Assembly: GCA_021735655.1 (NCBI GenBank)
Contig: JAIPGM010000001.1
Location: 161,728 to 225,727, forward strand
Length of the DNA: 64,000 bases
Direction: 5' to 3'
Source: Candidatus Omnitrophota bacterium
GTDB lineage: Bacteria; Omnitrophota; Gorgyraeia; Duberdicusellales; 4484-171
Made by a program: the position numbers and the translations under genes
Shown: positions 34,141 through 57,059 of the stretch, piece by piece
How positions within the stretch are numbered: the stretch's first letter is position 1
Layout of the letters: each line of letters opens with the position of its first letter
Notes under the pieces: model-generated
Databases searched by the model: none
The model's input: the letters and a program-made list of their open reading frames with translations, nothing else
What the model was told of the DNA's origin: nothing

Positions 34141-34146
34141 TAGACT

Positions 34147-35258: not shown

Positions 35259-36566
35259 TTGAAATTACCAATGAAAAGAAAGAGAATCCTGATTGTCGGA
35301 GGCGGGTTAGCCGGCTTAAGTGCTGCCTATTTTTTGGGTAAGCAGGGCCAAGCGGTATCTGTCTTTGAAAGAGAGAAAGAATGTGGAGGATTGTGCCGTT
35401 CAATAAAAAAGAATGGCTTTACCTTTGATTTTGGAGGTCATCTTCTGCACTTCCGAAGAAAGGATATTTTTCTGCTGGTCAAGAGACTTCTTAAGGGCAA
35501 TTTGCTAAAACATAAAAGAAGTGCCTGGGTTGATACTCATCAACGTTTATTGCCTTATCCGTTTCAGGCTAATCTTTTCGGTCTGCCTAAAAATATAGCT
35601 GCAGAATGCCTTCAAAACTTTATTGAGGTTAATACTAATGGACAAAAAACTGCTAAAACCAATAATTTTCGGGATTGGATAGATAGCAATTTTGGTAAAG
35701 GGATTGCCAGGCATTTTATGGTTCCTTATAACCTTAAATTTTGGAAAATGCCCTTAGAAAACCTTTCTTATGAATGGGCAGAGCGATTCGTAGTTCTTCC
35801 TTCGCGTAAAGATGTTGTTGAGGGGGCCATTGGAAGCCGAAGTAATAATTTAGGGTATAATTCCTTTTTTTGGTACCCTAAGCAAGGCGGAATAGAAGAG
35901 TTGATAAAGTCTTTTTCCGGTAGGGTGGATGATATTTTTTTAAATTCCGAAGCAGCAGAAATCGACCTAAAGAATAAAGCAGTAAGGTTTAAGAATGGTT
36001 CCAAAGAGAAATTTGACATTTTAGTTTCTACCATACCTTTACCCGAGCTTGGCAAAATTATTAAAGGATTGCCAAAAGATATTTTATCTGAATTTAGAAG
36101 ATTAAACTGGCTATCTATTTATAATATAAATCTAGGGGTAAAAGGAAATATTAGGCCAGGACAACACTGGATTTACTTTCCGAGAAAAGATAGTTCCTTT
36201 TTTAGAGTCGGATTTTTTAATAACTTTTCATCGCAGCTTGCGCCACGAGGCATGAGCTCTTTATATGCCGAAGCTTCATATCTCGGTGGTTCTGCGATAA
36301 GTAAGTCAAGGCTTGCCACGGCGATAAAAAAAGATTTAGCCAGAGCCGGAATTCTCGGAAAGGATAATTCTACTTGTTGCGAATACACGAATGATATAGA
36401 TTACGCTTATCCGATTTATGATAAGAATTATAGGACAGCCAGGCATAGAATTTTTAAGTTTTTGTCGAAAAACAAGGTTGTTTCGGTCGGCCGTTATGGC
36501 GGTTGGCAATACCTATCTATGGAGGATGTTATTTTGGAGGCCCAAGCTACGGCTAGGAGTATATAA
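35259..36566 (+). CDS. FAD-dependent oxidoreductase (amine oxidase / UDP-galactopyranose mutase-like)
   Basis: Has the N-terminal dinucleotide fold ILIVGGGLAGLSAAYFL...FERE..CGG and a C-terminal VGRYGGWQYLSMEDVI. The track uses a TTG start at 35259; an ATG at 35271 is an alternative. Confidence 0.6.
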   Translation: MKLPMKRKRILIVGGGLAGLSAAYFLGKQGQAVSVFEREKECGGLCRSIKKNGFTFDFGGHLLHFRRKDIFLLVKRLLKGNLLKHKRSAWVDTHQRLLPYPFQANLFGLPKNIAAECLQNFIEVNTNGQKTAKTNNFRDWIDSNFGKGIARHFMVPYNLKFWKMPLENLSYEWAERFVVLPSRKDVVEGAIGSRSNNLGYNSFFWYPKQGGIEELIKSFSGRVDDIFLNSEAAEIDLKNKAVRFKNGSKEKFDILVSTIPLPELGKIIKGLPKDILSEFRRLNWLSIYNINLGVKGNIRPGQHWIYFPRKDSSFFRVGFFNNFSSQLAPRGMSSLYAEASYLGGSAISKSRLATAIKKDLARAGILGKDNSTCCEYTNDIDYAYPIYDKNYRTARHRIFKFLSKNKVVSVGRYGGWQYLSMEDVILEAQATARSI

Positions 36567-37349
36567 ATGAAGTTTAGAAAAAGAATAAAAAATGTATTTT
36601 TCCATAAATCCATTTTGTGGGAGATGTCGATTAAGCAGCTTAAGGCAAAGTATTCTGGTTCTATGTTGGGTATTTGGTGGGCAGTGGCGACCCCTCTTAT
36701 TCTGGCTGTAAGTATTAATTTTATTTTTACTAATGTATTTAAGGTGGGTATTGAAAATTTTACCTTTTTTGTTTTATCAGGGATAGTCCCTTGGCTATTG
36801 TTCTCTAATGCTATAAACGAAGCCGCCGGGTCTTTTATTGCCAATTTTTCGGTATTAAGGCAGGCCATTTTTCCTCGAGAGTTTGTTCCAATGACTTCGA
36901 TTATCTCTAATTTTTTAATTTTTCTGATCGGTTTATTGATTCTGCTTCCTTTTTTTATTGTTTCTAATCCGAGGGTAATTACGGTTTTGCCGTTTCTGTT
37001 GGTAGTTTTATTTTTTTATTTATTTTTTCTTGTCGGGCTTGCTATGATTTTTTCATCTTTAAATGTTTTCTTTCGTGATGTATCCCATCTTTTAGCTATC
37101 GGGTTAATGGTTTGGTTTTGGGTTACGCCTATTTTTTACTCTTTGGATATGTTACCGGCTTCATTTCGCTGGATCTGCTTAAGTAATCCAGTTACTTACT
37201 ATGTAGTTTCTTATAGATTAATTTTGTTTGAAGCGAAGCCGTTATCCCTTCCAATTTTGTTAACTTTATTTTTTATTTCCTTTACGTCATTCATCGTTGG
37301 TTATGCCTTTTTCCTTAAAAATGAAAATAGTTTATTAAAACGAGTATGA
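36567..37349 (+). CDS. ABC-2 type polysaccharide exporter permease (Wzm/TagG-like)
   Basis: 260 aa with six hydrophobic segments and an N-terminal LKAKYSGSMLGIWWAVATPL typical of ABC-2 permeases. It overlaps the next gene by ATGA. Confidence 0.75.
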   Translation: MKFRKRIKNVFFHKSILWEMSIKQLKAKYSGSMLGIWWAVATPLILAVSINFIFTNVFKVGIENFTFFVLSGIVPWLLFSNAINEAAGSFIANFSVLRQAIFPREFVPMTSIISNFLIFLIGLLILLPFFIVSNPRVITVLPFLLVVLFFYLFFLVGLAMIFSSLNVFFRDVSHLLAIGLMVWFWVTPIFYSLDMLPASFRWICLSNPVTYYVVSYRLILFEAKPLSLPILLTLFFISFTSFIVGYAFFLKNENSLLKRV

Positions 37350-40300
37350 GGATAATAGAATTTAATAATGTTTGGGAGAAGTACCGGATTAAATTTGTAA
37401 GGGACAGGAAAGTTTCTTGGGAAGAAATTTGGGCTTTAAGCAATATAGACTTTACAGTTAATAAGGGTGAAGTTATAGGAATAATTGGTGAAAATGGTGC
37501 CGGAAAAACTACTTTATTAAAATTAATCGCTGGCATGTTTGCTCCGGATAGAGGAGATATATCTGTTCGAGGAAAGGTATCGGTATTGATGGAGCTAGGG
37601 GCTGGTTTTAATCCTGAGTTTACCGGGAGGGAAAATGTTATTCTTAATGCCCGTATCTACGGGTTAGATACAGACATAGTTGAACAGCAAATGGAGAAAA
37701 TCGTCGAATTTGCTGATATTGGTAAATTTATCGATGCCCCGGTTAAATATTATTCACAGGGCATGTATACCCGTTTAGCATTTGCTTTGGCTATATTTGT
37801 AGAGCCGGATATTCTTTTAATTGATGATATTCTATCGGTAGGCGATGCTGACGCACAAAAGAAATGTATTGATAAAGTATTCAAGTTAAAGGAATCGGGA
37901 AAGACTATTATTTTAGTAAGTCATGACATGCATATGATAAGTAGGCTGTGCGATCGAGTTATCCTTTTGGATAAAGGTAAACTTATCGACAGAGGTAATC
38001 CCGCTGAGATTATCTATCATTACCTAGAGACTGTTGGGGATAAAAGTGGTATTGCAGTTTTAGAAAAGGATAAATTAAGATTAGTATTTAATAATGGGAG
38101 AATTACTTTTAGCTACGCAGGAGTGCCCCTTACTAAAGAATTTGGTGGTTATGTGGCTTATTTTGTTTCTTCCCTTGGTAGTTGGCTTTCTTCTTTTGAT
38201 TTATTCTGGAAGATAAGCCATTTTTCAGCTAATAAAATTGTTGCTGAGGGAGAATATAAAGGTAGAGGGCCTTCTCAGGTTTGGGTTTTGGAATTTTCTG
38301 AAAGCAGATTATGTTGGCAGGTGAAGATAAAAGACAAAGATGTAAGAGATCCGCATATAGATTTATTGCTTAACCCTCAATATAAAAAATGGTTAAATTT
38401 AGACCAAGGCGGGGGTTTTCCTTCCTTTATTTCTAAATCTACTTGGCAGAATTTGGGTTTAGCTAATTTTCCCCAAGCTATGGTCGGTTTAACCGCAGAC
38501 TTGGAAGTTAAGAGTTGTCCTTCTTTTGTTTTGACCGCAGAGGATAAGGATACTCAGATTAGACTTTTCAATACAGGTTATGACCAGGAAGGACGCATTA
38601 TTCAGTTGGATTTAAAGTTAGCCGGAGACAATCTATTTTTTCTTAAAATATTTCCTGAGAAAAATATATTTGAAGAGTATATTAAAAAAGAGAAAGATAT
38701 ATTTGAAGAGAGCATTAAAAAAGTAAACCAGCAACTAGCTTTAGAGAAAGAAGCGCAACAGGTCAGATTGCGGGATTTATCAACTTTTGCTTGGGGCAAT
38801 TTTAGTCTTTTTGCTGATAAGGAGGAAAAGTCTTTAAAGCTATACTTTAAGAATAAAGAAGTCACCAAAAAAGAAGGATTCCATATATCTTTTTTGATCA
38901 ATAATATCTGGTACGATACTACTTCTGCGGATTGGCAGATAACTAAAGAAAAGGAAGTTTTCATAATTAAACTATTTTGGAAAGTGTTTGATTTTAAACA
39001 AACTTGGAAATTTTCAGTTAAGAATGGGGGGCTTCTTTGGAATTTAAATTCCATCGTAAAGAAAACCTTCAATCCAGAGATTATGAAAATCGGTTTACTA
39101 TTAATAAGTGAGTACAAAACTTTCTTTTGCGGTTATCAGCAGGAAGATTTTCCAGATAAATTCAGCTCTTGGCAGGATATGTCTCTCAAAGACCCGAAAG
39201 CAAGATGTTTTGGTTTAAGAAAACAAACATCGTTACCGGCGATTGCTTTAGATAACAATGAAAGTTTTGATTGTATTGTACAGAACAGCGATGAAGAAAA
39301 TTCCTGTCGGGTACTACAGCTAAGCCTTCCCAGGCAAAGTTTTATTCAAAAAAATACATCTTTTGGTGTTCAACTTAGCCTGCTTGAAGAGGAAAGTCCC
39401 ATTGATCATTACCTTAAACAAGAAAGACAGGACCATTTACTTAGGCAACAAGAAGCAAAAAGATTGCTTAGCGCTAAAAGTACTATATCAAAAGATAATT
39501 TTCGTTTTTTTGTTGATAAGGAAGAAAAATCTTTAAGGATATACTTTAAGGACAAAGAGATTACTAAAGGGGCCGGTCTACATAGTTCATTATGCGTTTT
39601 CGGGAAGTGGTTTCATAGGGAGGAAACTAGGTGGCAGACAAAAAAGATTTCCGATGAAGAAGTAGTTTTAATTTTAAGTTATGACTCACTACCGCTTTTA
39701 CAAATTTTTTCTCTTAGTTTCAAAAGAAAGGGTATTCTAAGAGTTAAAGTCGAAATGGAAATAAGCGAGCAGATTCATTTGTCTGATCATCATCTGAAGC
39801 TTGAGCTTCAAGATGACTATAATAATTGGGATACTGGCTATGAGCAAGGCAATTTTTTTATTGATCGATATGTGGATGAGATCGGTCCGATTAGACTAAA
39901 AGATAATAGAATTTCGAATATACTATTGAGATCAAACAATGAAAGTAAAATTCCAAAAATGCTTTTGAAAATTATTTCCCAAATTGATAGACGAATTATA
40001 AACCTTTATAAGCGAAGAAGTGAAGATGGAGAATGCGTTGGCCTTTGCTCTCCTTTGATTGTATCTAAAAAAGAAGAACTGGTTAAACCTGGAAAGTATA
40101 CTTATTTCGAAGGAGAAATCATATTTGGAAAAGAAGCTAAATTAGAAAGAGAAGCTTCTAGGGTAGATATTGTCGAGCTTAAAAAAGATGATATAAGATT
40201 TGTTTTTGATCGTGGCAGAGTTAAAATTTTCTGGAAGGAAGAAGAGTTAACTTCGGAATTAGGAATTTATACCTCATTGCGTTCAAAAGGAATCTGGCAG

Positions 40301-40813
40301 GATTCTTACCAGGCAGCTTGGGAAATAGAGCATAAAGCTAAGGAAAAAATTGTGGCAACTGGAGGTTGGCCTTACCTTCCCATTTCTCAAACATGGAAAT
40401 TAGAGTTGCTCGGCAAGAATTCAATATCTTGGCAAGTTGACATGGAGATTTACGGTGAAGTTAATTTAGAGATAGAACAGGCTAGTGTAATGATTTCTTC
40501 TAAATACAGGAATTGGGAAATTCCCAGTTTTAACAGCGGTAAATTTCTTGATGTCTATGTTAAGAATCACGATATTCTACCTTTTAGATTTTGGTCTGGG
40601 GATGCAAACAAGATAGCTGCTGTTTCAGAATGTTTTCCCTCGATAATTTTTAAAAGCGAAAGACAAGATAAAGAAATGCAGGCGGTTATAGAAAATACAG
40701 GTATTTTATATAGGGCAAGGTTGTTGCAGTATCAAAGTACAAGTAATAATGCAATTTTGCCAGGTAAATATCCATACTTTAGGGGGATGATAGAAATTGA
40801 GACTAGGAAGTAA
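37346..40813 (+). CDS. ABC exporter ATP-binding protein (Wzt/TagH-like) with ~900-aa C-terminal extension of four repeated uncharacterised domains
   Basis: The N-terminal ~235 aa have Walker A GENGAGKTT, the Wzt-type signature YSQGMYTRLAFA and Walker B LLIDDILSVGD. The tail holds four paralogous ~200-235-aa modules. Confidence 0.8.
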   Translation: MRIIEFNNVWEKYRIKFVRDRKVSWEEIWALSNIDFTVNKGEVIGIIGENGAGKTTLLKLIAGMFAPDRGDISVRGKVSVLMELGAGFNPEFTGRENVILNARIYGLDTDIVEQQMEKIVEFADIGKFIDAPVKYYSQGMYTRLAFALAIFVEPDILLIDDILSVGDADAQKKCIDKVFKLKESGKTIILVSHDMHMISRLCDRVILLDKGKLIDRGNPAEIIYHYLETVGDKSGIAVLEKDKLRLVFNNGRITFSYAGVPLTKEFGGYVAYFVSSLGSWLSSFDLFWKISHFSANKIVAEGEYKGRGPSQVWVLEFSESRLCWQVKIKDKDVRDPHIDLLLNPQYKKWLNLDQGGGFPSFISKSTWQNLGLANFPQAMVGLTADLEVKSCPSFVLTAEDKDTQIRLFNTGYDQEGRIIQLDLKLAGDNLFFLKIFPEKNIFEEYIKKEKDIFEESIKKVNQQLALEKEAQQVRLRDLSTFAWGNFSLFADKEEKSLKLYFKNKEVTKKEGFHISFLINNIWYDTTSADWQITKEKEVFIIKLFWKVFDFKQTWKFSVKNGGLLWNLNSIVKKTFNPEIMKIGLLLISEYKTFFCGYQQEDFPDKFSSWQDMSLKDPKARCFGLRKQTSLPAIALDNNESFDCIVQNSDEENSCRVLQLSLPRQSFIQKNTSFGVQLSLLEEESPIDHYLKQERQDHLLRQQEAKRLLSAKSTISKDNFRFFVDKEEKSLRIYFKDKEITKGAGLHSSLCVFGKWFHREETRWQTKKISDEEVVLILSYDSLPLLQIFSLSFKRKGILRVKVEMEISEQIHLSDHHLKLELQDDYNNWDTGYEQGNFFIDRYVDEIGPIRLKDNRISNILLRSNNESKIPKMLLKIISQIDRRIINLYKRRSEDGECVGLCSPLIVSKKEELVKPGKYTYFEGEIIFGKEAKLEREASRVDIVELKKDDIRFVFDRGRVKIFWKEEELTSELGIYTSLRSKGIWQDSYQAAWEIEHKAKEKIVATGGWPYLPISQTWKLELLGKNSISWQVDMEIYGEVNLEIEQASVMISSKYRNWEIPSFNSGKFLDVYVKNHDILPFRFWSGDANKIAAVSECFPSIIFKSERQDKEMQAVIENTGILYRARLLQYQSTSNNAILPGKYPYFRGMIEIETRK
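38060..40810 (+). repeat. Four tandem copies of an uncharacterised ~200-aa protein domain (also at about 40935-41600 and 50265-50906 in two radical SAM genes)
   Basis: Copies start at about 38060, 38786, 39491 and 40178. The alignable cores are LRLVFNNGRITFSYAGVPLTKEFG..., LKLYFKNKEVTKKEGFHISF..W.DT..ADWQI...QTWKFSV..GGLLWNL, LRIYFKDKEITKGAGLHSSL and VKIFWKEEELTSELGIYTSL..W.DS..AAWEI...QTWKLEL...SISWQV. Confidence 0.75.
38657..38722 (+). repeat. In-frame tandem duplication of a 33-nt unit (EKNIFEEYIKK / EKDIFEESIKK)
   Basis: Unit 1 (38657-38689) and unit 2 (38690-38722) differ at 2 of 11 residues. They sit in the linker between domain copies 1 and 2. Confidence 0.8.
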
Positions 40814-43163
40814 TTATCAAAAGTTTCGAAATCATCTAAGCGCGGGGGGTTTGATTTATGCTGTCTATAGAGGTATAAAATATTTTATTTATTTGCCGCA
40901 GAGGAGAAATTGTAAGCGTAAACAAAAACAAATAATGCTTATTAACGGCAAGCTAAGAATAGATTATTTGGATAAAGGGATTGGCATGTCTTGGAATAAT
41001 TCCCCAATTACCGAAAATGTACACTTTAATGTCGGGCTTAATACTTTAGGATTATGGACAGATTCTTCAAAGGCTCATTGGCAAATTATGGATCAAGGAG
41101 AAGATTATCTCAAGGTCAAGGTAATTTTCCAGGAGTTACCTTTGAGCCAGAATTGGCTAATAAAGTTAGAGGGCGACCACCAAATATACTGGAAGATAGA
41201 TTTAGAAATAGAAGAGCATCTTCATATTGATGAATTCCGGATGGTTTGCGGAGTTAACCGTAAGTATAAAACTTGGATTAATAGCTTTCAGGAGAAAGTT
41301 TTTCCCCGGCTTAATCAATATTGGCAAGATTTATGTCTAGATAATGTTTTTACTTCTTTTGTGGGAGTAAGGTTTCCTACTGGAAACACTCTCTTGCCTT
41401 CATTGGTATTTGAATCTTGCGATGATAGCAGAGTTTTTTCCCCCCTTGTTCAAAATACCCCTTTAGATATTAATACCCATATTATAGGATTTAGAAAGAT
41501 TAATCACGAAGATGAAAGGGATTATCCGCCGGGTTGTTATCAGCTTTTTGCTGGCAGAATAAAATTATACGAAGACAATTATCTGTTAGATAAGAAAATA
41601 GAAGATGTGCGTCAAGATTACTTTAAGTCTACAATGAAACGAGTAAGTGCTATTTCCGAAGCCAAAGAATTAAAAGTTATGCTAGTAAATCTACCTTGGC
41701 AGAATAACGGGGTAGGGGGAGTAAGGGCTGGCTCTCGTTGGCCGCACATGAAAGATTTAAGCGAAGGAAATTACTTACCATTTCCTTTTTTTCTTGCTTA
41801 CGCCACCTCTCTTTTAGAAAAAAACGGTATCAAGGCTGACTTAGTTGATGCTATCGCAGAATGTTTATCCGAAGATAAGTTTATCGAGCGGCTTTTAGGA
41901 GCTAATTGTAATGTTTTAGTTGTTGAGACCTCTGTGCCTTCATTTTACCATGATCTGCAGCTATTAAGGAAGTTATCAAATTTTGGTTTTACAATAATTT
42001 TATGCGGTCCAAATTCTGAAATTTATAAATTTGAATTTTTAAAAGAAAATAGATTCATTAATTATGTTTTATTCGGAGAATATGAATTTACGCTTTTGGA
42101 ATTGACGAAGATTATTTCTAAGGGCAAAAAAGATCTTACTTTTGTAAAAGGCCTTATTTGGAGAGATGAAAAAGGTAATATTATTAAGAATCATCCTCGG
42201 GAGCCTTTTGATATAAATTGTTTACCTTGGCCTCACAGGGATAAGCTTCCGATGGAAAAATATTGGGATTTACCTGGTGATATTCCTCATCCTTCGGTTC
42301 AAATAGTTGCCTCGCGGGGTTGTCCTTTTGGTTGCAGTTTTTGCCTTTGGCCTCAGATTCTTTTTGGCGGAAAGACCTATAGAGTGAGGGACGTAACTGA
42401 TTGCATTGATGAAATGGAGTACTTAGTAAGAGAAAAAGGCTTTAAATCAGTCTATTTCGATGATGATACTTTTAATGTCGGAAAAGCTAGGATGCTTGAT
42501 TTTTGCAATGAGATTATAAAGAGAAAGCTAGATAATGTCCCCTGGGCAATTATGGCTAAAGCCGACCTTATGGATGAGGAGATTTTAGATAAGATGAAGG
42601 AGGCTGGGTTACATGCGGTAAAGTATGGAGTAGAGAGTGCTTCGCAAGAGTTAGTGGATAGGTGTGGAAAATGTCTAGACCTTAAAAAAGCAGAGCAGAT
42701 GATTAAATATAGCCAACATTTAGGCATAAAGGTTCATTTGACTTTTTCCTTTGGTCTTCCTGGAGAAACTAAGGAGACAATTAAAAAAACAGTTGATTAT
42801 GCTTTAAAATTAGATCCACAGTCAGTTCAATTTTCAATTATTACACCTTTTCCAGGCACAACTCTTTTTGAAGAGCTAGATAAAAAGGAAAAAATTCTTA
42901 CTAAGAATTGGTCTTTGTATGATGGTCATTATAGTTGTGTTTTCCAGCCGGATAACCTTTCTTTGGGAGATTTAGAAGAATCAAAACAACATGCTTACAG
43001 GTTGTGGCTAGATTATCAAAGGAAAAAAAGAGGATTGCTGGGTGATCTAAAAAGGTTCTATAATTATGCACAAAAAGATGGTTTAGGCAATGCAGTTAAG
43101 AAGACTAAAGATTACTTGAATTATTCTATTTTTCATAGAAAGAAGTTTATCGGTAAGATATGA
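40797..43163 (+). CDS. B12-binding-domain radical SAM enzyme (class B) with N-terminal copy of the Wzt-tail domain
   Basis: The radical SAM triad CPFGCSFC is at 42321-42344, preceded by a B12-binding-type Rossmann region (KVMLVNLPW...). The N-terminal domain (about 40935-41600) is LRIDYLDKGIGMSWNNSPITENVHFNVGL..W.DS..AHWQI...QNWLIKL...QIYWKI. The track start is a TTG at 40797; an ATG at 40935 is an alternative. Confidence 0.8.
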   Translation: MRLGSNYQKFRNHLSAGGLIYAVYRGIKYFIYLPQRRNCKRKQKQIMLINGKLRIDYLDKGIGMSWNNSPITENVHFNVGLNTLGLWTDSSKAHWQIMDQGEDYLKVKVIFQELPLSQNWLIKLEGDHQIYWKIDLEIEEHLHIDEFRMVCGVNRKYKTWINSFQEKVFPRLNQYWQDLCLDNVFTSFVGVRFPTGNTLLPSLVFESCDDSRVFSPLVQNTPLDINTHIIGFRKINHEDERDYPPGCYQLFAGRIKLYEDNYLLDKKIEDVRQDYFKSTMKRVSAISEAKELKVMLVNLPWQNNGVGGVRAGSRWPHMKDLSEGNYLPFPFFLAYATSLLEKNGIKADLVDAIAECLSEDKFIERLLGANCNVLVVETSVPSFYHDLQLLRKLSNFGFTIILCGPNSEIYKFEFLKENRFINYVLFGEYEFTLLELTKIISKGKKDLTFVKGLIWRDEKGNIIKNHPREPFDINCLPWPHRDKLPMEKYWDLPGDIPHPSVQIVASRGCPFGCSFCLWPQILFGGKTYRVRDVTDCIDEMEYLVREKGFKSVYFDDDTFNVGKARMLDFCNEIIKRKLDNVPWAIMAKADLMDEEILDKMKEAGLHAVKYGVESASQELVDRCGKCLDLKKAEQMIKYSQHLGIKVHLTFSFGLPGETKETIKKTVDYALKLDPQSVQFSIITPFPGTTLFEELDKKEKILTKNWSLYDGHYSCVFQPDNLSLGDLEESKQHAYRLWLDYQRKKRGLLGDLKRFYNYAQKDGLGNAVKKTKDYLNYSIFHRKKFIGKI

Positions 43164-46100
43164 AGAATTATCTAGTCACCTGGGATAAAATATGTAAGGG
43201 TATAACTAAGCAAAAGAAGATATTTTGTGGCCCACACACTGTCCAAATAGATTTAACCGACAAATGCAATAGTAGCTGCGTTGCTTGTTGGATTCACTCA
43301 CCTTTAGTTGAGGAAAAAAAATCATTTCCAGAAGGCAAAAAACAACTTTCTTTCGAATTAGTTAAAAGTTTGATTAATGATTTGTCTGATTTAGGAACTC
43401 AGGAGGTAATTTTATCCGGATCAGGGGAGCCATTTTTATATCCAGAAATAAAAGAGGTTATAAAAAATATAAAGTCAAAAAATATGTATCTAAATATAAT
43501 TACCAATGCTTCTCTTATCGATGAGGAAATGGCAGAGCTGTTAGTAAAATGCAAAGTCGATTTAATTACTGCCAGCATATGGGCCGGTGATGCTGAAACT
43601 TACAGCTTAACTCATCCAGGAAAAAGCGAAGCTGATTTCGAAAAAATAAAGAGTAACTTAAAGAAATTGGCTTTTTATAAGAAGCGGTATGGTTCATTGG
43701 AGCCGCATTTAAAATTATATAATGTAATTTGCAGTAAAAATTATAGAAATATTGAGGAAATGGTTGATTTTGCTAAATCAATGGATGCCGATTCTTTAGA
43801 GTTTCAGGTTGTTGATATAATTTCTGGGAAAACAGATCATTTGGCCCTGAAAGATGCCTATAAGAGCGAGATAGTAAATCAATTGGACAATATAAGAAAG
43901 CGAAAAGATTTAATATCTTTTAATACGCCTAAAGAAATGCCGATAGATAGTTTTATTGATGAGGAATTTTTTGATTTTGGAAAGATTTGGAAAAATTACA
44001 AAAACGGCTTTTGCGTTTCTCAGTGTAGCAGTTCTTTGGTTTGCAAAAAAGATCACGAGATAAAAGATAAGAGAATTATTGTTTCAGAGTCGACATCAAC
44101 CAGAGGGACTCGTCCGGTTGCATTTTGGTATAAATTTGAAAATAATATATGTAAAACTTGCGAGGAAAATATTGAGTGCGTTGACGATGAAAATGCAGTG
44201 AGCATAAAATTGTTGAATATGTTGGGTATTGGTTCATTTTTGAGGAGATTATTGCGCTCTGATTTAGAGAGAGGGATATATGAAAAGCAAATAAATAGCA
44301 TCCCATGTTATATAGGGTGGTATTATTCTCGTATTTTAGCTAATGGTGATGTTATCCCTTGTTGCAAGGCAGGTAAGTTATCTTTAGGTAATATTAAGAA
44401 AAGAACTTTTTCTAAAATTTGGCATTCCTATCGATATAAAAAGTTTCGGCTTAACGCTAAGAATTTAACTAAGCATCATAAGTATTTTTCTAACATCAAT
44501 TGCATCAAGAGTTGCGATAATTGGGGAGTAAATTTAGAAATCGACGGGAGATTGAAGGAATTTGAAAATAAAGAGAAAAAAAAGGAGCCTTACCTTTTAA
44601 CTATCAAGAATAGCATTATAAAGGGTAGGGTTGAGGATACGCTTGCAAAAATTACTCGTAATATTAAACCGAATAATTTAAAAAAGAGATATTCAGAAAT
44701 TTTAGGTGTATTTGATGGTGAACATGGTTATAAAGGTCCATTCCACGTTCAGATAGACTTGACTAATGATTGCAATAACACTTGCATTGCTTGTTGGTGC
44801 AATTCACCTCTTTTGAAAGAGAAACGATTATCGGCTGATAAAAAAAATCAATATTTACCTTTAGGAATGGTAAAGGAATTATTGGATGAGATTACTAATA
44901 TGGGTGCTACTGAGGTCTATTATTCAGGAAGTGGTGAACCATTTATGCATCCAGCGATTATGGAGATTCTCGATTATTCAAAAAAGAAAGGTTTAATCTG
45001 TCACGTAAATACTAATTTTACTCTTCTTAATCAAGAAAAGATAGATTGCTTAATCGATATGGAGGTTGACCATCTTACGGTGAGTGTTTGGGCGGCTACG
45101 GCCGAAACTTATGCAAAAACTCATCCTAATAAAACCGAGGCTGACTTTCAACGGATAAAAGAGAATTTACTATATCTGAACTTACGAAAGAAAAGTAAGC
45201 CCTGTATAAAAATTTATAACGTTATTTTTAACATGAATTACCTTGAAGTTGAGAAGATGCTTGATTTTGCCGTTGAGACTAAATCTGAATCTTTAGAATT
45301 TACCCTTGTAGATACTATGCCTGGGGCTACTGATATGCTTGCTTTAAATCAAGGACAGTTGGATGAGCTTAATGATTTATGCAGGAAAATAAAATTAAAA
45401 TTAGATAAAAATTACATAATTAGGAGTAAAAAGGTATTGCTTTTTCAGTTTGAGCAGTTTTTGAGAAGGATTTCTGTTTCTCAAGATGTCCAGGAGGCAA
45501 AATACGATAGAGGTGTTATTGATAGTATGCCTTGTTATATTGGTTGGCTTTTTGCACGAATAATTCCTAACGGGGAAGTTCATTCTTGTCTTAAGGCGCA
45601 TAGAATTCCGACCGGTTCTTTGTATAAAGATAGATTTTTCGAAATTTGGAATAGTGCTAAACAGGCACATTTTCGTAAAAAGACTTTAGTTTGCAGAAAA
45701 GATGATCCTTTCTTTAGGTTGATTGGCAACGATCCCAATACAAAGGAGGCCGGTTGTTACAAGAGTTGCGATGATATCGGGAGGAACACTTGGATGCATA
45801 ACAAGATGAATATGTTGACGCCACTGGGAAGGCTGACACTTAAGTACGTAGCTAAAGCCATGAAGCCTCTAAGGAGGCTTAGGTCCAAAAACGATAATTT
45901 TAAGAATTACCACAGTGACCCTTTAATTGCCGGGGTCATCCATGGCCGGAAGGCTTTTTTGGGACCCGAACAAGTAGTAATTGATCCGACCAATAAGTGT
46001 AATTTGCAATGCATTTCTTGTTGGATGTATTCGCCATTATTGAAAAAAAATAAACCAGCTTTGGATTTATTGAAACAAGAATTATCTAAAGAGGTACTTA

Positions 46101-47014
46101 TTAAATTAATCGATGATTTAGCTGATTTAGGAACAAAGCGTATTAGGTTCACTGGTGGCGGAGAGCCTTTTATGCATAAAGATTTGATGACAGTAATAGA
46201 GCATGCCCGAAAAAAGAATATTTTAGTTGCGGTAACTACGAACTTTGGTTTGGTCTCTAGACAGGATATTCTTAGATTGTGTGATTTGGGATTGGAGGAG
46301 TTATGCATAAGCATTTGGGGTTCTTCATCGAGAGTCTACAATTTGGTTCATCCTGGTACCGGTGAGGATTATTTTAAGAAATTAAAAGAAAATCTTTCTT
46401 ATTTGAAAGGGCTAAATAAGTATAAACCGCGGACTACCTTTGCTAATGTAATCATGAATAATAATTTCACTGATTTTGAAGCAATGTATGATTTTGCTTT
46501 AGATCATGGAGCTGATGCAGCCTATTTTACCTTGGTTGATATTATTTCCGGTCAAACCGATAAGTTCTTGTTGAATAAAGATGAACGAAGCGAATTGCTA
46601 AAGAGAGCTCTTATGGTTCAGCAACGAAATAAAGATAACAAGCTGCAGCTTGAATTTTTTGAGAATTTTCTAAAAAGAGTATCTAGTTTCCAAGGAGACT
46701 TTGAAAAAGGAGAATATGATAAATCGAGCATTGATCAATTGCCTTGTTATGCCGGCTGGATTTTTTCAAGAGTTTTGGCAGACGGAAGCGTTGCGCCCTG
46801 CTGCCGGGGGGTTAAAAAAATAATCGGCAACATCAAGACTAAATCTTTTAAAGATATTTGGTTTTCGCCCGAATACAATGAGTTTAGAGTTAAAGCAAAG
46901 TATTTATCGAAAAGCAACGCTTACTTTAAGGATATAGGCTGTATAAAAGAATGTGATAATTTGATGCATAATCAGGAGTTTCATAAAAGAATAAATCTAA
47001 AAGAAGGAGGTTGA
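43160..47014 (+). CDS. Triple-module radical SAM/SPASM-like fusion protein (1,284 aa)
   Basis: Three paralogous modules carry CNSSCVAC (43265-43288), CNNTCIAC (44771-44794) and CNLQCISC (45998-46021). Each is followed by SGSGEPF/TGGGEPF and a Cys-rich auxiliary-cluster region (PCYIGW...PCC...C.K.CDN). The start overlaps the upstream stop by ATGA. Confidence 0.8.
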   Translation: MKNYLVTWDKICKGITKQKKIFCGPHTVQIDLTDKCNSSCVACWIHSPLVEEKKSFPEGKKQLSFELVKSLINDLSDLGTQEVILSGSGEPFLYPEIKEVIKNIKSKNMYLNIITNASLIDEEMAELLVKCKVDLITASIWAGDAETYSLTHPGKSEADFEKIKSNLKKLAFYKKRYGSLEPHLKLYNVICSKNYRNIEEMVDFAKSMDADSLEFQVVDIISGKTDHLALKDAYKSEIVNQLDNIRKRKDLISFNTPKEMPIDSFIDEEFFDFGKIWKNYKNGFCVSQCSSSLVCKKDHEIKDKRIIVSESTSTRGTRPVAFWYKFENNICKTCEENIECVDDENAVSIKLLNMLGIGSFLRRLLRSDLERGIYEKQINSIPCYIGWYYSRILANGDVIPCCKAGKLSLGNIKKRTFSKIWHSYRYKKFRLNAKNLTKHHKYFSNINCIKSCDNWGVNLEIDGRLKEFENKEKKKEPYLLTIKNSIIKGRVEDTLAKITRNIKPNNLKKRYSEILGVFDGEHGYKGPFHVQIDLTNDCNNTCIACWCNSPLLKEKRLSADKKNQYLPLGMVKELLDEITNMGATEVYYSGSGEPFMHPAIMEILDYSKKKGLICHVNTNFTLLNQEKIDCLIDMEVDHLTVSVWAATAETYAKTHPNKTEADFQRIKENLLYLNLRKKSKPCIKIYNVIFNMNYLEVEKMLDFAVETKSESLEFTLVDTMPGATDMLALNQGQLDELNDLCRKIKLKLDKNYIIRSKKVLLFQFEQFLRRISVSQDVQEAKYDRGVIDSMPCYIGWLFARIIPNGEVHSCLKAHRIPTGSLYKDRFFEIWNSAKQAHFRKKTLVCRKDDPFFRLIGNDPNTKEAGCYKSCDDIGRNTWMHNKMNMLTPLGRLTLKYVAKAMKPLRRLRSKNDNFKNYHSDPLIAGVIHGRKAFLGPEQVVIDPTNKCNLQCISCWMYSPLLKKNKPALDLLKQELSKEVLIKLIDDLADLGTKRIRFTGGGEPFMHKDLMTVIEHARKKNILVAVTTNFGLVSRQDILRLCDLGLEELCISIWGSSSRVYNLVHPGTGEDYFKKLKENLSYLKGLNKYKPRTTFANVIMNNNFTDFEAMYDFALDHGADAAYFTLVDIISGQTDKFLLNKDERSELLKRALMVQQRNKDNKLQLEFFENFLKRVSSFQGDFEKGEYDKSSIDQLPCYAGWIFSRVLADGSVAPCCRGVKKIIGNIKTKSFKDIWFSPEYNEFRVKAKYLSKSNAYFKDIGCIKECDNLMHNQEFHKRINLKEGG

Positions 47015-47020: not shown

Positions 47021-47839
47021 TTGAATATGGCGGGTAAAGTGGGTGCTATCGATTTTCAATTATTTTTAAGAAAAATCAGCCTTGAGCGTTTTTTTCAAAG
47101 TTTTTATTATTTTAAATGGTTGGAATACCCTTTAGTCTACAATAACCTTGAACTAAAAGCAGGTGAACAGTATCTCGATATCGGTAGTGGAAAGTCCATT
47201 TTTCCTCTATTTGTCGTAGCGAAAAATAACTGTAACGTGCACGTATTTGATGATCAGTCCATTATAAAAGACAGTATTACTTATTATCAGAGCAATATTA
47301 GAAAGATGGGGTTATGCAATATTTCTGGAAAAAATTTCTTGATTCACGAAGCTACAGAGAAAGGACAGCTCGATTTTCCTGATAATTACTTTGATAGAGT
47401 TTCTTGTATTTCGGTATTAGAGCATATTAAGGGCAATGGTGATAGTGTAATGATGCAGGAAATATCAAGAATTTTAAAAAAAGGCGGGAGGGCTGTGATA
47501 ACTTTTCCGTTTAATGGCAAGGATTATATAGAAGAAGATAACCCAGAAGGGGTAGGATATTTCCAGCGGAAGTATAGTGTAGCGGCGATTAAAGAGCGGA
47601 TAATTGATCCAGCCAATTTAAAGGTTAAGAAGGTTATATATTTTGGAGAACGTTATATAAGTTTTGGGGAACAATACTTGCAGAATAAATTTAGAAAAAT
47701 AAATTGGCTCATACCTTTATTCGCGCCTATTTTATGGAGGGTGTGCCATTATTATGAAGGTGAATATCGCAATTTTTATGAGCGAGCAATAGATAAAAAA
47801 GGTACTGGCGTAGCGTGTATTGTTTTTGATAAGATTTGA
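47021..47839 (+). CDS. Class I SAM-dependent methyltransferase
   Basis: Motif I YLDIGSGKS, then ISVLEHI and LKKGGRAVITFP. The track start is a TTG at 47021; an ATG at 47027 is an alternative. Confidence 0.7.
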   Translation: MNMAGKVGAIDFQLFLRKISLERFFQSFYYFKWLEYPLVYNNLELKAGEQYLDIGSGKSIFPLFVVAKNNCNVHVFDDQSIIKDSITYYQSNIRKMGLCNISGKNFLIHEATEKGQLDFPDNYFDRVSCISVLEHIKGNGDSVMMQEISRILKKGGRAVITFPFNGKDYIEEDNPEGVGYFQRKYSVAAIKERIIDPANLKVKKVIYFGERYISFGEQYLQNKFRKINWLIPLFAPILWRVCHYYEGEYRNFYERAIDKKGTGVACIVFDKI

Positions 47840-47864: not shown

Positions 47865-48737
47865 ATGCTGACTTTTCCTAAATATCTTTCAATCCAAACT
47901 ACTTCTCTATGCAATGCTTCTTGTGTATTTTGTCCCTATAAAGATATAAAAGATGTAAGGTTCAAGACAATAATGGATAGAGGCCTTTATGAAAAAGTTA
48001 TTAATGAATGCAGTAACCATAAAGATATTGAATGCATTATAGTTTACATGAATAACGAGCCCTTAACTGATCCTTGCATAGTTGAGAGAATAAATTATGC
48101 CAAAGATAAAGTTCCTTGGGCTAGTGTGCATATCTTGACCAATGGAGCCTTACTTAGCGATGACCTGGCTGATAAACTTATTGATTCTCGTCTAGACTGG
48201 ATCGGGGTAAGCTTTCATGGGATCAGAAAAGAAACTATAGAGCGGGCAATGGGCATTCCTTATGAGATCAGCTTGAAGAGAATAACCAATTTTATCGAAA
48301 AAGCAAAAGCGAAGAAAAATATAAAGAACTATTTTATGCTAACTTTTTTGCGCCATGTATATTTGACTCCTCAAGAGCGGGAAGAGGCTATTAGTTTTTG
48401 GAGAAAACTGGGGATAGAAAGAATAAGCTATTTTGACGGGCCCATATCTCGGGCCAGCAATGTAACTAATTTACCAAAAGTCTACCATCAAGGCAAGATC
48501 AGTGGATGTAATTCTATCTGGGCTGATGAGATGCTTCATGTGGTAGAGGATGGTAAGGTTATTTTGTGCTGCATGGATTGGCGAAGAGAAGTAATTTTAG
48601 GCGACCTAAACAAACAAAGCATCCATGAAATATGGAATGGCAAAAGAAGAAAGATTTGGGATATGATTCGTGGAACAGGAGAGGTTCCTGAAGGATTTTT
48701 GTGCCGCAGGTGCGAAGAGGCTAAGCAAGAGATTTAA
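47865..48737 (+). CDS. Radical SAM protein with C-terminal SPASM/twitch-like Cys cluster
   Basis: CNASCVFC at 47910-47933, and C-terminal CNSIW...LCCMDW...FLCRRCEEA. Confidence 0.75.
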   Translation: MLTFPKYLSIQTTSLCNASCVFCPYKDIKDVRFKTIMDRGLYEKVINECSNHKDIECIIVYMNNEPLTDPCIVERINYAKDKVPWASVHILTNGALLSDDLADKLIDSRLDWIGVSFHGIRKETIERAMGIPYEISLKRITNFIEKAKAKKNIKNYFMLTFLRHVYLTPQEREEAISFWRKLGIERISYFDGPISRASNVTNLPKVYHQGKISGCNSIWADEMLHVVEDGKVILCCMDWRREVILGDLNKQSIHEIWNGKRRKIWDMIRGTGEVPEGFLCRRCEEAKQEI

Positions 48738-48740: not shown

Positions 48741-50909
48741 ATGCTCATGAAAAATGAAAATTGCGAATTAATTTTTGTAATGACTCCGCCTTGGCAGACA
48801 AAGATGCCGCCTTTAGGCTTGGCCTATTTAGCCAGTTTTTTGAAGTCAAACAATATTAACGTAGATGTCATAGATTTGAATGTGGATCTTTTTAATAATG
48901 CTCAAGAATGCCATAAATATTTTTGGGATATAGAAACAATAAGTAATTTTGGTTCGCTTCGGATTGCCCAAGATTTTATTAAGGCATTCAATAAAGAACT
49001 TGAAAATTTTGTTGATCGAATCTGTAGTCATCCTGCAAAGTTGGTCGGTTTTTCTACTACGGTAGCTAGTATAAATATCGCCACCTACCTTACTCATCGG
49101 ATAAAATCAAAAGATCCTTCGAAAATAATTATTTTAGGCGGGCCAGGATGTTTTTTGGATACTTGCAATATAGATCCTGAAAGGGTGGTAGATATTTTTG
49201 TCATTGGCGACGGAGAGCTGCCTTTATTGGATATAGTTAAAAGATTTAAAGATAAACAGTCTTTGTCTGATTTGTTGGAGGTTCCTGGGACAATAATTTG
49301 TCTAGATAAGAAATATCATGACTTTTCACCGGCGAATCCTGTTAAGCAGATAAACGATATTCCTTTTCCTACTTTTTCGGAGTTCGAGCTGGATGAATAC
49401 CATAAAGAACATGTTTACAAACCAATTCCAATTATTACCAGCAGAGGCTGTATAAATAAATGCAGTTTTTGCGTAGACCATAAGCTCAGTAATCCTTTTA
49501 GATTTCGAAATCCGCACAAAATATTTGAAGAGATAAAATACCATGTAGAAAATAATTGTAAAAAAGAGTTTGAGTATAACGATCTACTATGTAATGGAAA
49601 TTTAAAGCAATTGGAGCAGCTTTGCGACCTGATCATTGAAAGCGGCCTGTCTATAAAATGGACAAGCTATGCGGCCATAAGGAAAGGTATGAGTTTAGAG
49701 TTATTTCAGAAGATGCAGAAGGCGGGATGCAGATTTTTATGTTATGGTATGGAGTCAGCTTCAGATTTAGTTTTAGATAAGATGAATAAAAGATATAATT
49801 CTCATACGGCAGAGGATGTTATTAGAAAAACCCATTCCTCAGGTATCGAGACAGGAATCAACATTATAGTTGGCCACCCCGGTGAGTCGAATAAAGAATT
49901 TAACCAAACTTATAGATTTATCAAAAGAAACAAAGACTACATTGATCAAATCACAAACCTGTCTACTTGTTTTTTAATACCGACTTCGGATTTAGCTGAG
50001 AATATGAGCAATTTCGGTATTTATTTTTATTCTCCTTTGAAAAGGATGCCAAAATTCTTATTTCGAAATAAAGAGCTTGAGCCTAATTATGAAAATTTCT
50101 GCGCCTATCCTCATAATACTCCTGCGATTAGAGCAAAACGAGCCAGAAAAATTATAACTCTTGCTTCAAAGATAGCTATACCGATTACTATTTTGAACTA
50201 TCAAAAGCAGCACGATATGGGTATGGGGGATTTTCTAGTCCAAACTCAAGAAGCGGAAAAAGTTTTTCGTTGTAAGAAGTTAAAGATAGACTTTAGTCAA
50301 AAAGGAAGCGGTAGGTTATATTATGACAATAAGGCCTTAACTAAAGACGTAGGCCTAAATGCTTCCTTTCATGCCAATGGGCGATGGTTTGATTCTTCTT
50401 CGGCAAAGTGTCGGGTAGCCAGATCCAACAGAGGCTTGGAAATAAGAATGAGTTGGCCGGAGATTTCTTTGTTTCAATGCTGGACGATAAAAACAGAAGG
50501 TGATTCTTCTGTCGAATGGCGGGTAAAAACAGAGTTTAAAAGGTCTTTGGAGCTATCTCAATATAAGATCGGCATTATCTTGTCACAGGAATACGATAGT
50601 TGCCAAGTTAATGGTGAAGAACACCGATTCTCCGATAATTTTACCGAGAACTGGGAGGAAGCATTGTTTTTGAAGCTTGATTCGATAAGCATCGGCTCTA
50701 AGGGATTTTTACCGATGATGACCCTGAAGGAAGAATCCAAGGGTGGTGTGTTCGTGCAGGTCCATAATACCCCGCTTCACTTGCATACTCGAATGATTAA
50801 TTTTTGCCGTTTTGGCGAGAACCTTAAAGATGACCACAGCACTGAATCTTTATTGATCAAAAAAGGTGATGTTTGGAAAAATAAGCTAAAAATAAAATTA
50901 AAGGTTTAA
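48741..50909 (+). CDS. B12-binding-domain radical SAM enzyme (class B) with C-terminal copy of the Wzt-tail domain
   Basis: The N-terminal LIFVMTPPWQTKMPPLGLAYLASFL is B12-domain type. CINKCSFC is at 49449-49472. The C-terminal domain (about 50265-50906) is LKIDFSQKGSGRLYYDNKALTKDVGLNASF..W.DS...FQCWTIK...SVEWRV. Confidence 0.8.
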   Translation: MLMKNENCELIFVMTPPWQTKMPPLGLAYLASFLKSNNINVDVIDLNVDLFNNAQECHKYFWDIETISNFGSLRIAQDFIKAFNKELENFVDRICSHPAKLVGFSTTVASINIATYLTHRIKSKDPSKIIILGGPGCFLDTCNIDPERVVDIFVIGDGELPLLDIVKRFKDKQSLSDLLEVPGTIICLDKKYHDFSPANPVKQINDIPFPTFSEFELDEYHKEHVYKPIPIITSRGCINKCSFCVDHKLSNPFRFRNPHKIFEEIKYHVENNCKKEFEYNDLLCNGNLKQLEQLCDLIIESGLSIKWTSYAAIRKGMSLELFQKMQKAGCRFLCYGMESASDLVLDKMNKRYNSHTAEDVIRKTHSSGIETGINIIVGHPGESNKEFNQTYRFIKRNKDYIDQITNLSTCFLIPTSDLAENMSNFGIYFYSPLKRMPKFLFRNKELEPNYENFCAYPHNTPAIRAKRARKIITLASKIAIPITILNYQKQHDMGMGDFLVQTQEAEKVFRCKKLKIDFSQKGSGRLYYDNKALTKDVGLNASFHANGRWFDSSSAKCRVARSNRGLEIRMSWPEISLFQCWTIKTEGDSSVEWRVKTEFKRSLELSQYKIGIILSQEYDSCQVNGEEHRFSDNFTENWEEALFLKLDSISIGSKGFLPMMTLKEESKGGVFVQVHNTPLHLHTRMINFCRFGENLKDDHSTESLLIKKGDVWKNKLKIKLKV

Positions 50910-57058: not shown

Positions 57059-57059
57059 T

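What the first reader, a model, noticed from the sequence alone, without database searches (positions are those of the whole stretch)
38060..40810. An uncharacterised ~200-aa domain links the Wzt-like exporter ATPase (four copies) to two B12-radical SAM enzymes (one copy each)
Seen in sequence: six alignable copies. Four lie in the ATPase tail (starting at about 38060, 38786, 39491 and 40178). One is at the N-terminus of the 788-aa rSAM (about 40935-41600) and one at the C-terminus of the 722-aa rSAM (about 50265-50906). The shared pattern is [LIF]-x-[ILF]-x-[FY]...G-x-[ILV]-x-[IFL]-[FWY]...[EK]-[ILV]-T-x-x-x-G-[FIL]-x-x-S...W-x-D-[ST]...W-x-[IV]...Q-x-W-x-[ILF]...W-x-[VLI]. Established knowledge: in ABC-dependent O-antigen export, the Wzt C-terminal domain is a carbohydrate-binding module that recognises the chemically capped polymer end. 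Inference: this domain may be a substrate-recognition module shared by the modifying enzymes and the exporter, so that rSAM modification and export read the same polymer. I cannot assign the domain to a known family.
Basis: partly seen in the sequence, partly recalled or inferred. Interest (0 to 1): 0.75.

Follow-up and report, generated by a model that had tools for sequence, protein, structure and literature searches.

The report
New sugar-binding-type module on glycan exporter
A previously uncatalogued ~205-residue beta-sandwich module, of the fold that sugar-processing enzymes use next to their active sites, is repeated four times on the tail of a polysaccharide-export ATPase and once on each of two neighbouring radical SAM enzymes, and this arrangement is conserved in 39 uncultured Omnitrophota-type genomes, which suggests that one kind of reading head links chemical tailoring of a surface glycan to its export.

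The parts
35259..36566 (+). UDP-galactopyranose-mutase-like flavoenzyme; it is the first conserved gene of the operon
   Evidence: The best PDB match is UDP-galactopyranose mutase 4dsg, E 4.5e-46 over aa 8-418. It hits Pfam Amino_oxidase and NAD_binding_8. It lies upstream of the permease in at least 18 of 30 related loci.
36567..37349 (+). Wzm-like ABC-2 permease
   Evidence: It hits Pfam ABC2_membrane. The best NCBIfam hits are the galactan export permease Wzm/RfbD and KpsM. Its stop overlaps the ATPase start.
37346..38059 (+). Wzt/TagH-type nucleotide-binding domain of the 1155-aa ATPase
   Evidence: It hits ABC_tran at aa 31-161. NCBIfam matches are TagH and Wzt/RfbE. The best PDB match is A. 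aeolicus Wzt 8dku/7k2t, E 6e-63, covering query aa 13-241 only.
38060..38728 (+). Domain copy 1 (subtype c, the 'first-position' type); it is followed by a 47-aa charged helical linker that runs to 38785
38786..39469 (+). Domain copy 2 (subtype d, a middle type)
   Evidence: HMM iE 2.2e-60. Subtype.
39488..40144 (+). Domain copy 3 (subtype b, a middle type); it lacks the conserved Asn173/Arg181 pair
   Evidence: HMM iE 1.1e-52. The residues at the signature positions are Y and E.
40178..40810 (+). Domain copy 4 (subtype a, the type that is nearly always last)
   Evidence: HMM iE 4.1e-74. Subtype a is the last copy in 71 ABC proteins. It is 43-56% identical to the terminal copies of other proteins.
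40797..43163 (+). 788-aa class-B radical SAM enzyme with an N-terminal domain copy (nt 40938-41657, subtype e); its start overlaps the ATPase stop
   Evidence: HMM iE 1.4e-59. It hits Radical_SAM. It is HpnJ/BchE-like but below the cut-offs. A D-B12rSAM gene follows the ATPase in 38 of 39 loci.
43160..47014 (+). 1284-aa fusion of three radical SAM/SPASM enzymes, with no domain copy
   Evidence: Pfam finds 3x Radical_SAM and 3x SPASM. The same three units are fused or split in related loci.
47021..47839 (+). SAM-dependent methyltransferase
   Evidence: Pfam Methyltransf_11/31/23. There is a weak NCBIfam hit to the mycofactocin oligosaccharide methyltransferase MftM.
47865..48737 (+). 290-aa radical SAM/SPASM enzyme
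   Evidence: Pfam Radical_SAM and SPASM.
48741..50909 (+). 722-aa class-B radical SAM enzyme with a C-terminal domain copy (nt 50265-50894)
50920..54078 (+). 1052-aa fusion of two class-B radical SAM enzymes, with no domain copy
   Evidence: Pfam finds 2x B12-binding and 2x Radical_SAM.
54075..56335 (+). Two GT1-family (GT-B fold) glycosyltransferases that close the conserved block
   Evidence: Pfam Glycos_transf_1 and Glyco_trans_1_4. A GT1 gene follows the rSAM genes in most related loci.

Best explanation
The six copies belong to a domain family (called D here) that no Pfam or NCBIfam model covers. D is a ~205-residue beta-supersandwich of the galactose-mutarotase-like fold, followed by a 15-47-residue charged helix. 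I propose that D is a non-catalytic glycan-binding module of a conserved operon found in Omnitrophota-type genomes: UDP-galactopyranose-mutase-like enzyme, Wzm permease, Wzt ATPase with an ordered array of D copies (c-d-b-a in this window), D-B12-rSAM, three rSAM/SPASM enzymes, further B12-rSAMs and GT1 glycosyltransferases.

Proposed mechanism:
- The single D copy on a radical SAM enzyme holds that enzyme on the polymer, as a carbohydrate-binding module does for a glycoside hydrolase.
- The D array hanging below the Wzt NBD dimer captures the polymer and hands it to the Wzm channel. It thereby takes the place of the canonical Wzt_C carbohydrate-binding domain.

Shown here: homology of the six copies, size of the family, fold, domain architectures, positional subtypes and synteny. 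Inferred: that D binds carbohydrate, what the ligand is, and that binding gates export.

For: Family: 635 clusters at E<=1e-3 and 300 at E<=1e-30.

Architectures: NBD + 2-7 detected copies in 86 of 151 proteins (P0068 gave 8 matched stretches), 1-4 copies + rSAM/SPASM, B12-rSAM with an N- or C-terminal copy, PMT_2 (GT-C) + 2-3 copies, and sulfatase + 2 copies. Every partner is an enzyme or transporter of glycan assembly or tailoring.

Location: the sulfatase fusion has an N-terminal signal anchor. The module therefore also occurs outside the cytoplasm, as expected for something that binds the exported product.

Glycan context: the NBD is closest to solved Wzt, TarH/TagH and RfbE. The permease hits Wzm/KpsM. 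The first operon gene is a UDP-galactopyranose mutase homologue. GT1 genes flank the block. A WecA-type GT4 lies upstream in L008.

Synteny: in 38 of 39 genome loci, and in L002, L007 and L008, the gene after the D-tailed ATPase begins with a D copy, which is sometimes a free-standing D protein.

Conserved residues: Trp/Tyr plus Thr25, Ser43, Gln71, Asn173, Asp175 and Arg181 are conserved, but no His or acid/base Glu.

Precedent: the Wzt carbohydrate-binding domain recognises the modified glycan terminus (abstract of PMC9445017).
Against: No binding data exist, and I could not map the conserved residues onto the model because coordinates are not returned. The conserved aromatic residues may simply form the hydrophobic core.

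The supersandwich fold also occurs in proteins with no known sugar ligand, such as the YidC P1 domain, NDH subunit PnsB2 and a PBCV-1 capsid protein.

The rSAM-borne copies (subtypes e and g) are different subtypes from the ATPase copies (a, b, c, d, f), so a shared epitope is not implied. Subtype b has lost the Asn/Arg pair.

Radical SAM/SPASM enzymes classically act on peptides, and no radical SAM enzyme tailoring a polysaccharide before ABC export turned up in the literature searches.

Both models rest on a six-sequence alignment.
Confidence: 0.55

Rival explanations
1. D is a protein-protein docking or scaffold module. D on the radical SAM enzymes pairs with D copies on the Wzt tail, or the helical linkers zip the tails together. 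This would assemble a tailoring-export metabolon without D touching the glycan.
For: The ATPase tail has an ordered, position-specific array (c-d-b-a), as a docking platform might. Each copy is followed by a charged helix that could form a coiled coil. The D-B12rSAM gene is translationally coupled to the ATPase gene. Supersandwich domains mediate oligomer contacts in some enzymes (own knowledge).
Against: The number of tail copies (2-5) does not track the number of D-bearing enzymes in the locus, which is usually one. D also occurs on a signal-anchored sulfatase and on GT-C proteins in loci that show no D-tailed ATPase within the 15-kb or shorter stretches retrieved. The sulfatase copy at least should lie outside the cytoplasm and could not dock onto a cytoplasmic tail.
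Confidence: 0.2
2. The system acts on a peptide (RiPP-like) or a lipid rather than a polysaccharide, and D recognises that substrate, playing the role of a RiPP recognition element.
For: rSAM/SPASM and B12-rSAM enzymes are typical RiPP and lipid tailoring enzymes. The top NCBIfam hits include RiPP C-methyltransferases, HpnJ and a 'lipid biosynthesis B12 rSAM', all below their cut-offs. ABC-2 exporters also move lipids.
Against: No small ORF is conserved across the loci. The operon in the window has no intergenic room between 40813 and 56335. The transporter is closest to Wzt, TagH and RfbE. The first gene is a UDP-galactopyranose mutase homologue. GT1, GT-C and sulfatase partners and the CAZyme-type fold all point to carbohydrate. 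HpnJ itself acts on a sugar ring (own knowledge).
Confidence: 0.12
3. D is an enzyme, a mutarotase- or epimerase-like catalytic domain, not a binding module.
Against: There is no sequence-profile match to Aldose_epim or any other Pfam family. D has about 205 residues against about 290-340 in the epimerases. No His or Glu acid/base residue is conserved family-wide. Having 2-8 divergent tandem copies on an ATPase is hard to explain for a catalyst.
Confidence: 0.08
4. The repeats are a compositional or chance artefact of an AT-rich, Lys/Glu-rich sequence.
For: The region is 34-36% GC, and two of the 15 pairs score weakly (z 2.1 and 4.7).
Against: Thirteen of 15 pairs have z>10. All six copies match a family HMM built from other proteins (323 copies) at 1e-47 or better. 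There are 635 homologous clusters and confident, concordant structure models.
Confidence: 0.01

Closest known systems
Wzt C-terminal carbohydrate-binding domain (Pfam PF14524, Wzt_C; E. coli O9a and Aquifex aeolicus WzmWzt)
   Same: It sits at the same position, C-terminal to a Wzt-type NBD that partners a Wzm ABC-2 permease. It is an all-beta module. The proposed role is the same: capture of the finished or modified lipid-linked glycan for export (abstract of PMC9445017; NBD homology).
Galactose-mutarotase-like supersandwich domains (aldose 1-epimerases; accessory domains of GH2, GH15, GH31, GH38, GH65/94, GH97 and polysaccharide lyases)
   Different: Sequence identity is 6-14%, and no profile-level match was found. 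No conserved catalytic His or Glu is present. The fusion partners (ABC NBD, radical SAM enzymes, GT-C, sulfatase) are new for this fold as far as I could find.
Carbohydrate-binding modules appended to glycoside hydrolases, and RiPP recognition elements (RRE) shared by RiPP tailoring enzymes
   Same: The logic is the same: one portable recognition module is fused to several different enzymes acting on one polymer, and in some loci it is split off as a free-standing protein (L015, L019, L037, L041).
   Different: The CBM comparison is by analogy only, because binding is untested. The RRE has a PqqD-like winged-helix fold that binds a leader peptide, whereas here no precursor peptide gene is conserved.
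glf-wzm-wzt galactan-type O-antigen and galactan clusters (Klebsiella O1/O2, mycobacterial RfbD/RfbE)
   Same: The gene trio is the same: UDP-galactopyranose mutase homologue, Wzm and Wzt.
   Different: The mutase is closest to the long eukaryote-type UGMs. The Wzt carries the D array. The trio is followed by radical SAM genes holding up to nine radical SAM domains in all in this window, instead of only glycosyltransferases.

Membership tests
Wzt/TagH-type glycan ABC exporter ATPase | The NBD is homologous to characterised Wzt, TarH/TagH and RfbE | tested here: met
   The best PDB hits are A. aeolicus Wzt 8dku/7k2t/6m96 (E 6e-63 to 4e-62), then TarH, TagH and RfbE. The top NCBIfam hits are TagH and galactan Wzt/RfbE, below the equivalog cut-offs.
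Wzt/TagH-type glycan ABC exporter ATPase | An ABC-2 (Wzm-type) permease is encoded next to it | tested here: met
   ORF 36567-37349 hits ABC2_membrane. Its best NCBIfam hits are Wzm/RfbD and KpsM. This pairing is conserved in the related loci.
Wzt/TagH-type glycan ABC exporter ATPase | It exports a polyprenol-linked glycan | not testable with these tools
   The only support is context: a UGM homologue, GT1 genes, and a Bac_transf or GT4 initiating transferase nearby.
Wzt_C carbohydrate-binding domain (PF14524) | Sequence-profile match to PF14524 | tested here: not met
   There was no hit for the full ATPase (E<=0.01), the six copies (E<=10) or 29 diverse copies (E<=1). The alignment to full-length A. 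aeolicus Wzt stops at the NBD.
Galactose-mutarotase-like supersandwich superfamily | The supersandwich fold | tested here: met
Aldose 1-epimerase enzymes (PF01263) | Sequence-profile match and conserved catalytic His/Glu residues | tested here: not met
   There is no Pfam hit. The family-wide conservation list contains no His and no Glu other than the one in the E-L-T motif. No residue-level superposition was possible.
Carbohydrate-binding module (functional class) | Demonstrated binding of a carbohydrate by the isolated module | not testable with these tools
   This is inferred from fold, fusion partners and operon context only.
Class B (cobalamin-dependent) radical SAM enzymes (the two hosts) | A CxxxCxxC cluster motif plus an N-terminal B12-binding domain | tested here: met
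   The CPFGCSFC and CINKCSFC motifs are visible in the translations. The 722-aa protein hits PF02310. The 788-aa protein aligns to HpnJ/BchE profiles from position 5 or 22 onward.
RiPP biosynthetic cluster | A conserved precursor-peptide gene next to the rSAM/SPASM maturases | tested here: not met
   No small ORF is shared by more than 10 of 42 loci. The one that recurs is a single-helix membrane peptide next to a GT1 gene. The window operon has no room for one.

The most novel reading that the evidence does not exclude
Many Omnitrophota-type genomes may share a previously undescribed surface-glycan pathway. In it, a furanose-containing polymer is heavily tailored by radical SAM chemistry (up to nine rSAM domains per locus) before export. 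A new family of supersandwich modules would serve as a shared reading code: single copies recruit each tailoring enzyme, and an ordered array of specialised copies (c-d-b-a) on the Wzt tail, spaced by helices, acts as a multi-site checkpoint or ruler. This checkpoint would verify several modifications, or the chain length, before the ABC transporter fires.
Probability: 0.3. Interest if true: 0.85.

Novelty: new variant of a known kind. Interest (0 to 1): 0.68.

Why it matters
ABC-transporter-dependent glycan export is understood mainly from a few proteobacterial and Aquifex systems. In those, one Wzt_C domain reads a terminal cap. Here the same job appears to be done by an unrelated fold, in ordered multi-copy arrays, and the same module is carried by the tailoring enzymes.

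If binding is confirmed, three things follow:
- It gives a direct handle for finding the substrate of a large set of orphan radical SAM enzymes. The isolated module could be used to fish the glycan out.
- It predicts radical SAM tailoring of a polysaccharide before export, which the literature searches did not find described.
- It defines a conserved cell-surface pathway in a phylum of mostly uncultured, host-dependent nanobacteria, whose surface chemistry probably matters for attachment to hosts.

It also supplies a new domain family of at least 635 clusters for Pfam or InterPro.

Tried and rejected
- The word-indexed homology search with the six-copy profile found only one fragment. The exhaustive profile search was needed.
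- The single-protein scan of genome contigs confirmed nothing. A 14-sequence alignment of terminal-type copies then worked.
- The afdb50 fold library was not available, so no UniProt-annotated structural neighbours were obtained.
- PDB sequence searches with both profiles found nothing significant. The best hit was a LolA-family protein at E 0.12. The GT-C fusion P0021 has no solved relative, so its topology, and hence whether its D copies are periplasmic, rests on family knowledge only.
- My hydropathy count of TM helices was too crude to fix the topology.
- HpnJ/hopanoid and ladderane readings were considered and rejected. Scores are far below the family cut-offs (236 vs 578 bits; 108 vs 360), and the papers checked do not describe this operon.
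- The 'amine oxidase' gene was first considered as HpnE/CrtI-like. PDB comparison shows it is a UDP-galactopyranose mutase homologue.
- Minus-strand ORFs inside the region (38602-39117, 36494-36868, 45907-46314) have no family hits and overlap the plus-strand genes, so they are treated as spurious.
- Literature searches for this domain or operon returned nothing relevant.
Full report
OBSERVATION. The region lies in a run of co-directional, tightly packed or overlapping genes on the + strand. ORF 37346-40813 encodes a 1155-aa protein. Only its first ~240 residues are recognised by Pfam, as ABC_tran. The remaining 917 residues split into four segments that align with each other, with the N-terminal ~240 residues of the next gene (788 aa, 40797-43163) and with the C-terminal ~210 residues of the 722-aa protein (48741-50909). 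Thirteen of 15 pairs score z>10 against 200 shuffles. A family HMM built from 323 copies in other proteins matches all six almost end to end (iE 2.5e-47 to 4.1e-74) and nothing else in the six-frame translation of the window. At DNA level the copies are not repeats. The exceptions are a 95-nt stretch of 75% identity at the starts of copies 2 and 3, and a 33-nt tandem inside the first linker.

WHAT THE HOSTS ARE. The NBD is closest to solved Aquifex aeolicus Wzt (E 6e-63; the alignment ends at the NBD), then TarH/TagH and mycobacterial RfbE. The upstream 260-aa protein is an ABC-2 permease whose best NCBIfam hits are Wzm/RfbD and KpsM. The gene before it, which Pfam calls an amine oxidase, is a UDP-galactopyranose mutase homologue (PDB 4dsg, E 4.5e-46 over nearly the full length). 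The operon therefore begins with the classic glf-wzm-wzt trio. Both D-bearing enzymes are class-B radical SAM proteins. The 788-aa enzyme is most like HpnJ and BchE but scores far below their cut-offs. Between and after them lie a triple rSAM/SPASM fusion (1284 aa), a methyltransferase, another rSAM/SPASM, a double B12-rSAM fusion (1052 aa) and two GT1 glycosyltransferases.

THE DOMAIN IS NOT IN THE FAMILY LIBRARIES. The six copies and 29 diverse family members have no consistent hit in Pfam-A or NCBIfam at E<=1-10. Two profiles find nothing significant among PDB sequences. In particular, PF14524 (Wzt_C) is not matched. Public names for family members are generic, for example 'radical SAM protein [Candidatus Omnitrophota bacterium]' and 'arylsulfatase A-like enzyme'.

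THE FAMILY IS LARGE AND MODULAR. An exhaustive profile search of 1.84 billion representatives finds 635 proteins at E<=1e-3 and 300 at E<=1e-30. I classified 151 proteins (the 150 best hits plus one fragment) with probes from the window and with Pfam. The architectures are:
- NBD + 2-7 detected copies in 86 proteins (the 2244-aa P0068 gave 8 matched stretches);
- copies only, about 50 proteins, which may be gene fragments;
- 1-4 copies + rSAM/SPASM;
- B12-rSAM with an N- or C-terminal copy;
- PMT_2 (GT-C glycosyltransferase) + 2-3 copies, 7 proteins;
- sulfatase + 2 copies, 1 cluster.
The sulfatase fusion has an N-terminal signal anchor. Every partner is a glycan-assembly, glycan-tailoring or glycan-export protein.

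CONSERVED POSITIONS AND SUBTYPES. The family-wide conserved residues are Thr25, Gly29, Trp40, Ser43, Trp48, Gln71, Trp73, Tyr110, Trp113, Phe122, Pro154, Asn173, Asp175 and Arg181. No His or catalytic-type Glu is conserved. Clustering 391 copies gives subtypes that hold fixed positions in the ATPase tail. Subtype c comes first, d, b and f sit in the middle, and a is nearly always last (71 cases). The window reads c-d-b-a, which is the commonest four-copy grammar. The rSAM-borne copies form their own subtypes (e, g), and the first copy of the GT-C fusions is subtype h. The Asn173/Arg181 pair is 88-100% conserved in subtypes a, c, d, f and g. It is lost in subtype b, where window copy 3 has Tyr and Glu. 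Linkers are 15-47 residues, charged and predicted helical. The array is therefore an old, ordered structure with specialised positions.

SYNTENY AND TAXONOMY. The window is part of a 129.8-kb contig assembled from SRR12088349. A scan of one genome per species with 14 terminal-type copies returned 39 loci. Most are labelled Candidatus Omnitrophota MAGs or SAGs. About ten are labelled 'uncultured Planctomycetia' or 'uncultured Planctomycetales', and a few carry other labels. All 39 show the same block: (GT1) - UGM-like - Wzm - NBD-D(2-5) - D-B12rSAM - three rSAM/SPASM (fused or split) - further B12-rSAM - GT1. In 38 of 39, the gene right after the ATPase begins with a D copy. In six loci that copy is a free-standing D ORF, in four of them followed by a separate B12-rSAM gene. 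Three metagenome loci fetched through other family members agree. L002 also has a D-D-rSAM/SPASM and a rSAM with a C-terminal D. L008 has a WecA-type GT4 upstream. The sulfatase-D protein sits in a cluster with GTs, CysD/CysN-like genes and rSAM/SPASM enzymes. A GT-C-D3 protein lies beside a B12-rSAM gene and cobalamin genes.

MECHANISM. The best-supported reading (confidence 0.55) is that D is a non-catalytic glycan-binding module. Single copies tether radical SAM tailoring enzymes to a lipid-linked polymer that probably contains a furanose sugar. In other loci, copies do the same for GT-C transferases and a sulfatase. The ordered array under the Wzt NBD dimer captures the polymer for export, in place of the Wzt_C domain, whose role in reading the modified terminus is established (abstract of PMC9445017). 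Shown here: homology, fold, architectures, subtypes and synteny. Inferred: binding, ligand identity and gating.

The rivals are as follows:
- A docking or scaffold role (0.2). This is weakened because tail copy number does not track the number of D-bearing enzymes, and because D also occurs on a signal-anchored sulfatase that should lie outside the cytoplasm.
- A peptide or lipid substrate (0.12). This is weakened by the absence of a conserved precursor ORF and by the glf-wzm-wzt, GT and CAZyme-fold context.
- A catalytic mutarotase-like role (0.08). No profile match exists and no catalytic residues are conserved.
- Chance (0.01).

COMPARISON AND NOVELTY. The system works like a Wzt carbohydrate-binding domain and like a CBM or RRE shared among tailoring enzymes. 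It is not a member of PF14524, which was tested and not met. At fold level it belongs with the galactose-mutarotase-like supersandwich domains. At sequence level it is an unmodelled family. Literature searches found no description of the domain, the array or the operon. I rate it a new variant of a known kind, with interest 0.68.

LIMITS. There are no binding data. No model coordinates were available to locate the conserved residues. Both models rest on six sequences. The afdb50 library was unavailable. The topology of the GT-C fusions was not established. The taxonomic labels are those written in the genome records.

Noticed in passing
window 56-29311 (+): A single 9751-aa ORF (the gene caller gives 8937 aa) has scattered hits to GT1, Bac_transf (a phosphoglycosyl transferase), GH77, PLP-dependent decarboxylase, Glu/Leu dehydrogenase and GH100. 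It looks like a multi-enzyme 'giant protein' of the kind reported for Omnitrophota. It contains no D copy.
   Followed up: partly
window 43160-47014 and 50920-54078; L011, L015, L027, L036: The three rSAM/SPASM units are fused into one 1284-aa protein here, but are three separate genes in several related loci. B12-rSAM units are likewise fused in different combinations, including D-B12rSAM-B12rSAM and D-B12rSAM-rSPASM.
   Followed up: partly
window 35259-36566: The conserved first gene of the operon resembles the long eukaryote-type UDP-galactopyranose mutases (T. cruzi 4dsg at E 4.5e-46; A. fumigatus at E 2e-37) far more than the bacterial Glf structures (E 1e-6 to 7e-9).
   Followed up: partly
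window 39488-40144 (copy 3) and subtype b generally: The penultimate copy type has lost the otherwise near-invariant Asn173/Arg181 pair. It may be a degenerate spacer or may have a different specificity.
   Followed up: partly
window 38657-38722: A 33-nt tandem duplication (88% identical) lies inside the helical linker between copies 1 and 2 (EKNIFEEYIKK / EKDIFEESIKK). This suggests that linker length can change by slippage.
   Followed up: no
L011 16415-16546, L015 18063-18179, L017 15532-15651 and 7 more loci: A ~40-aa ORF with one hydrophobic helix, ending in (F/L)FPG(A/G), sits just upstream of the GT1 gene that follows the rSAM genes. It is absent from the window.
   Followed up: partly
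L003 1295-5038; L004 10001-12376: The same domain is fused to GT-C (PMT_2) glycosyltransferases (2-3 copies) and to a signal-anchored arylsulfatase-like enzyme. The sulfatase lies in a cluster with GTs, CysD/CysN-like genes and rSAM/SPASM enzymes. A longer 934-aa variant of the sulfatase exists (P0154).
   Followed up: partly
window 56381-57863 (+) and 57871-59217 (-): A second ABC-2 exporter, with a short 225-aa NBD lacking a D tail plus a permease, directly follows the GT1 genes. A HemW/HemN-like radical SAM gene lies on the opposite strand.
   Followed up: no
window 29352-35115 (+): A complete Opp/Dpp-type peptide importer (SBP_bac_5, two permeases, two ATPases) lies between the giant gene and the glf-wzm-wzt block. 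It is not part of the conserved block in the related loci.
   Followed up: no
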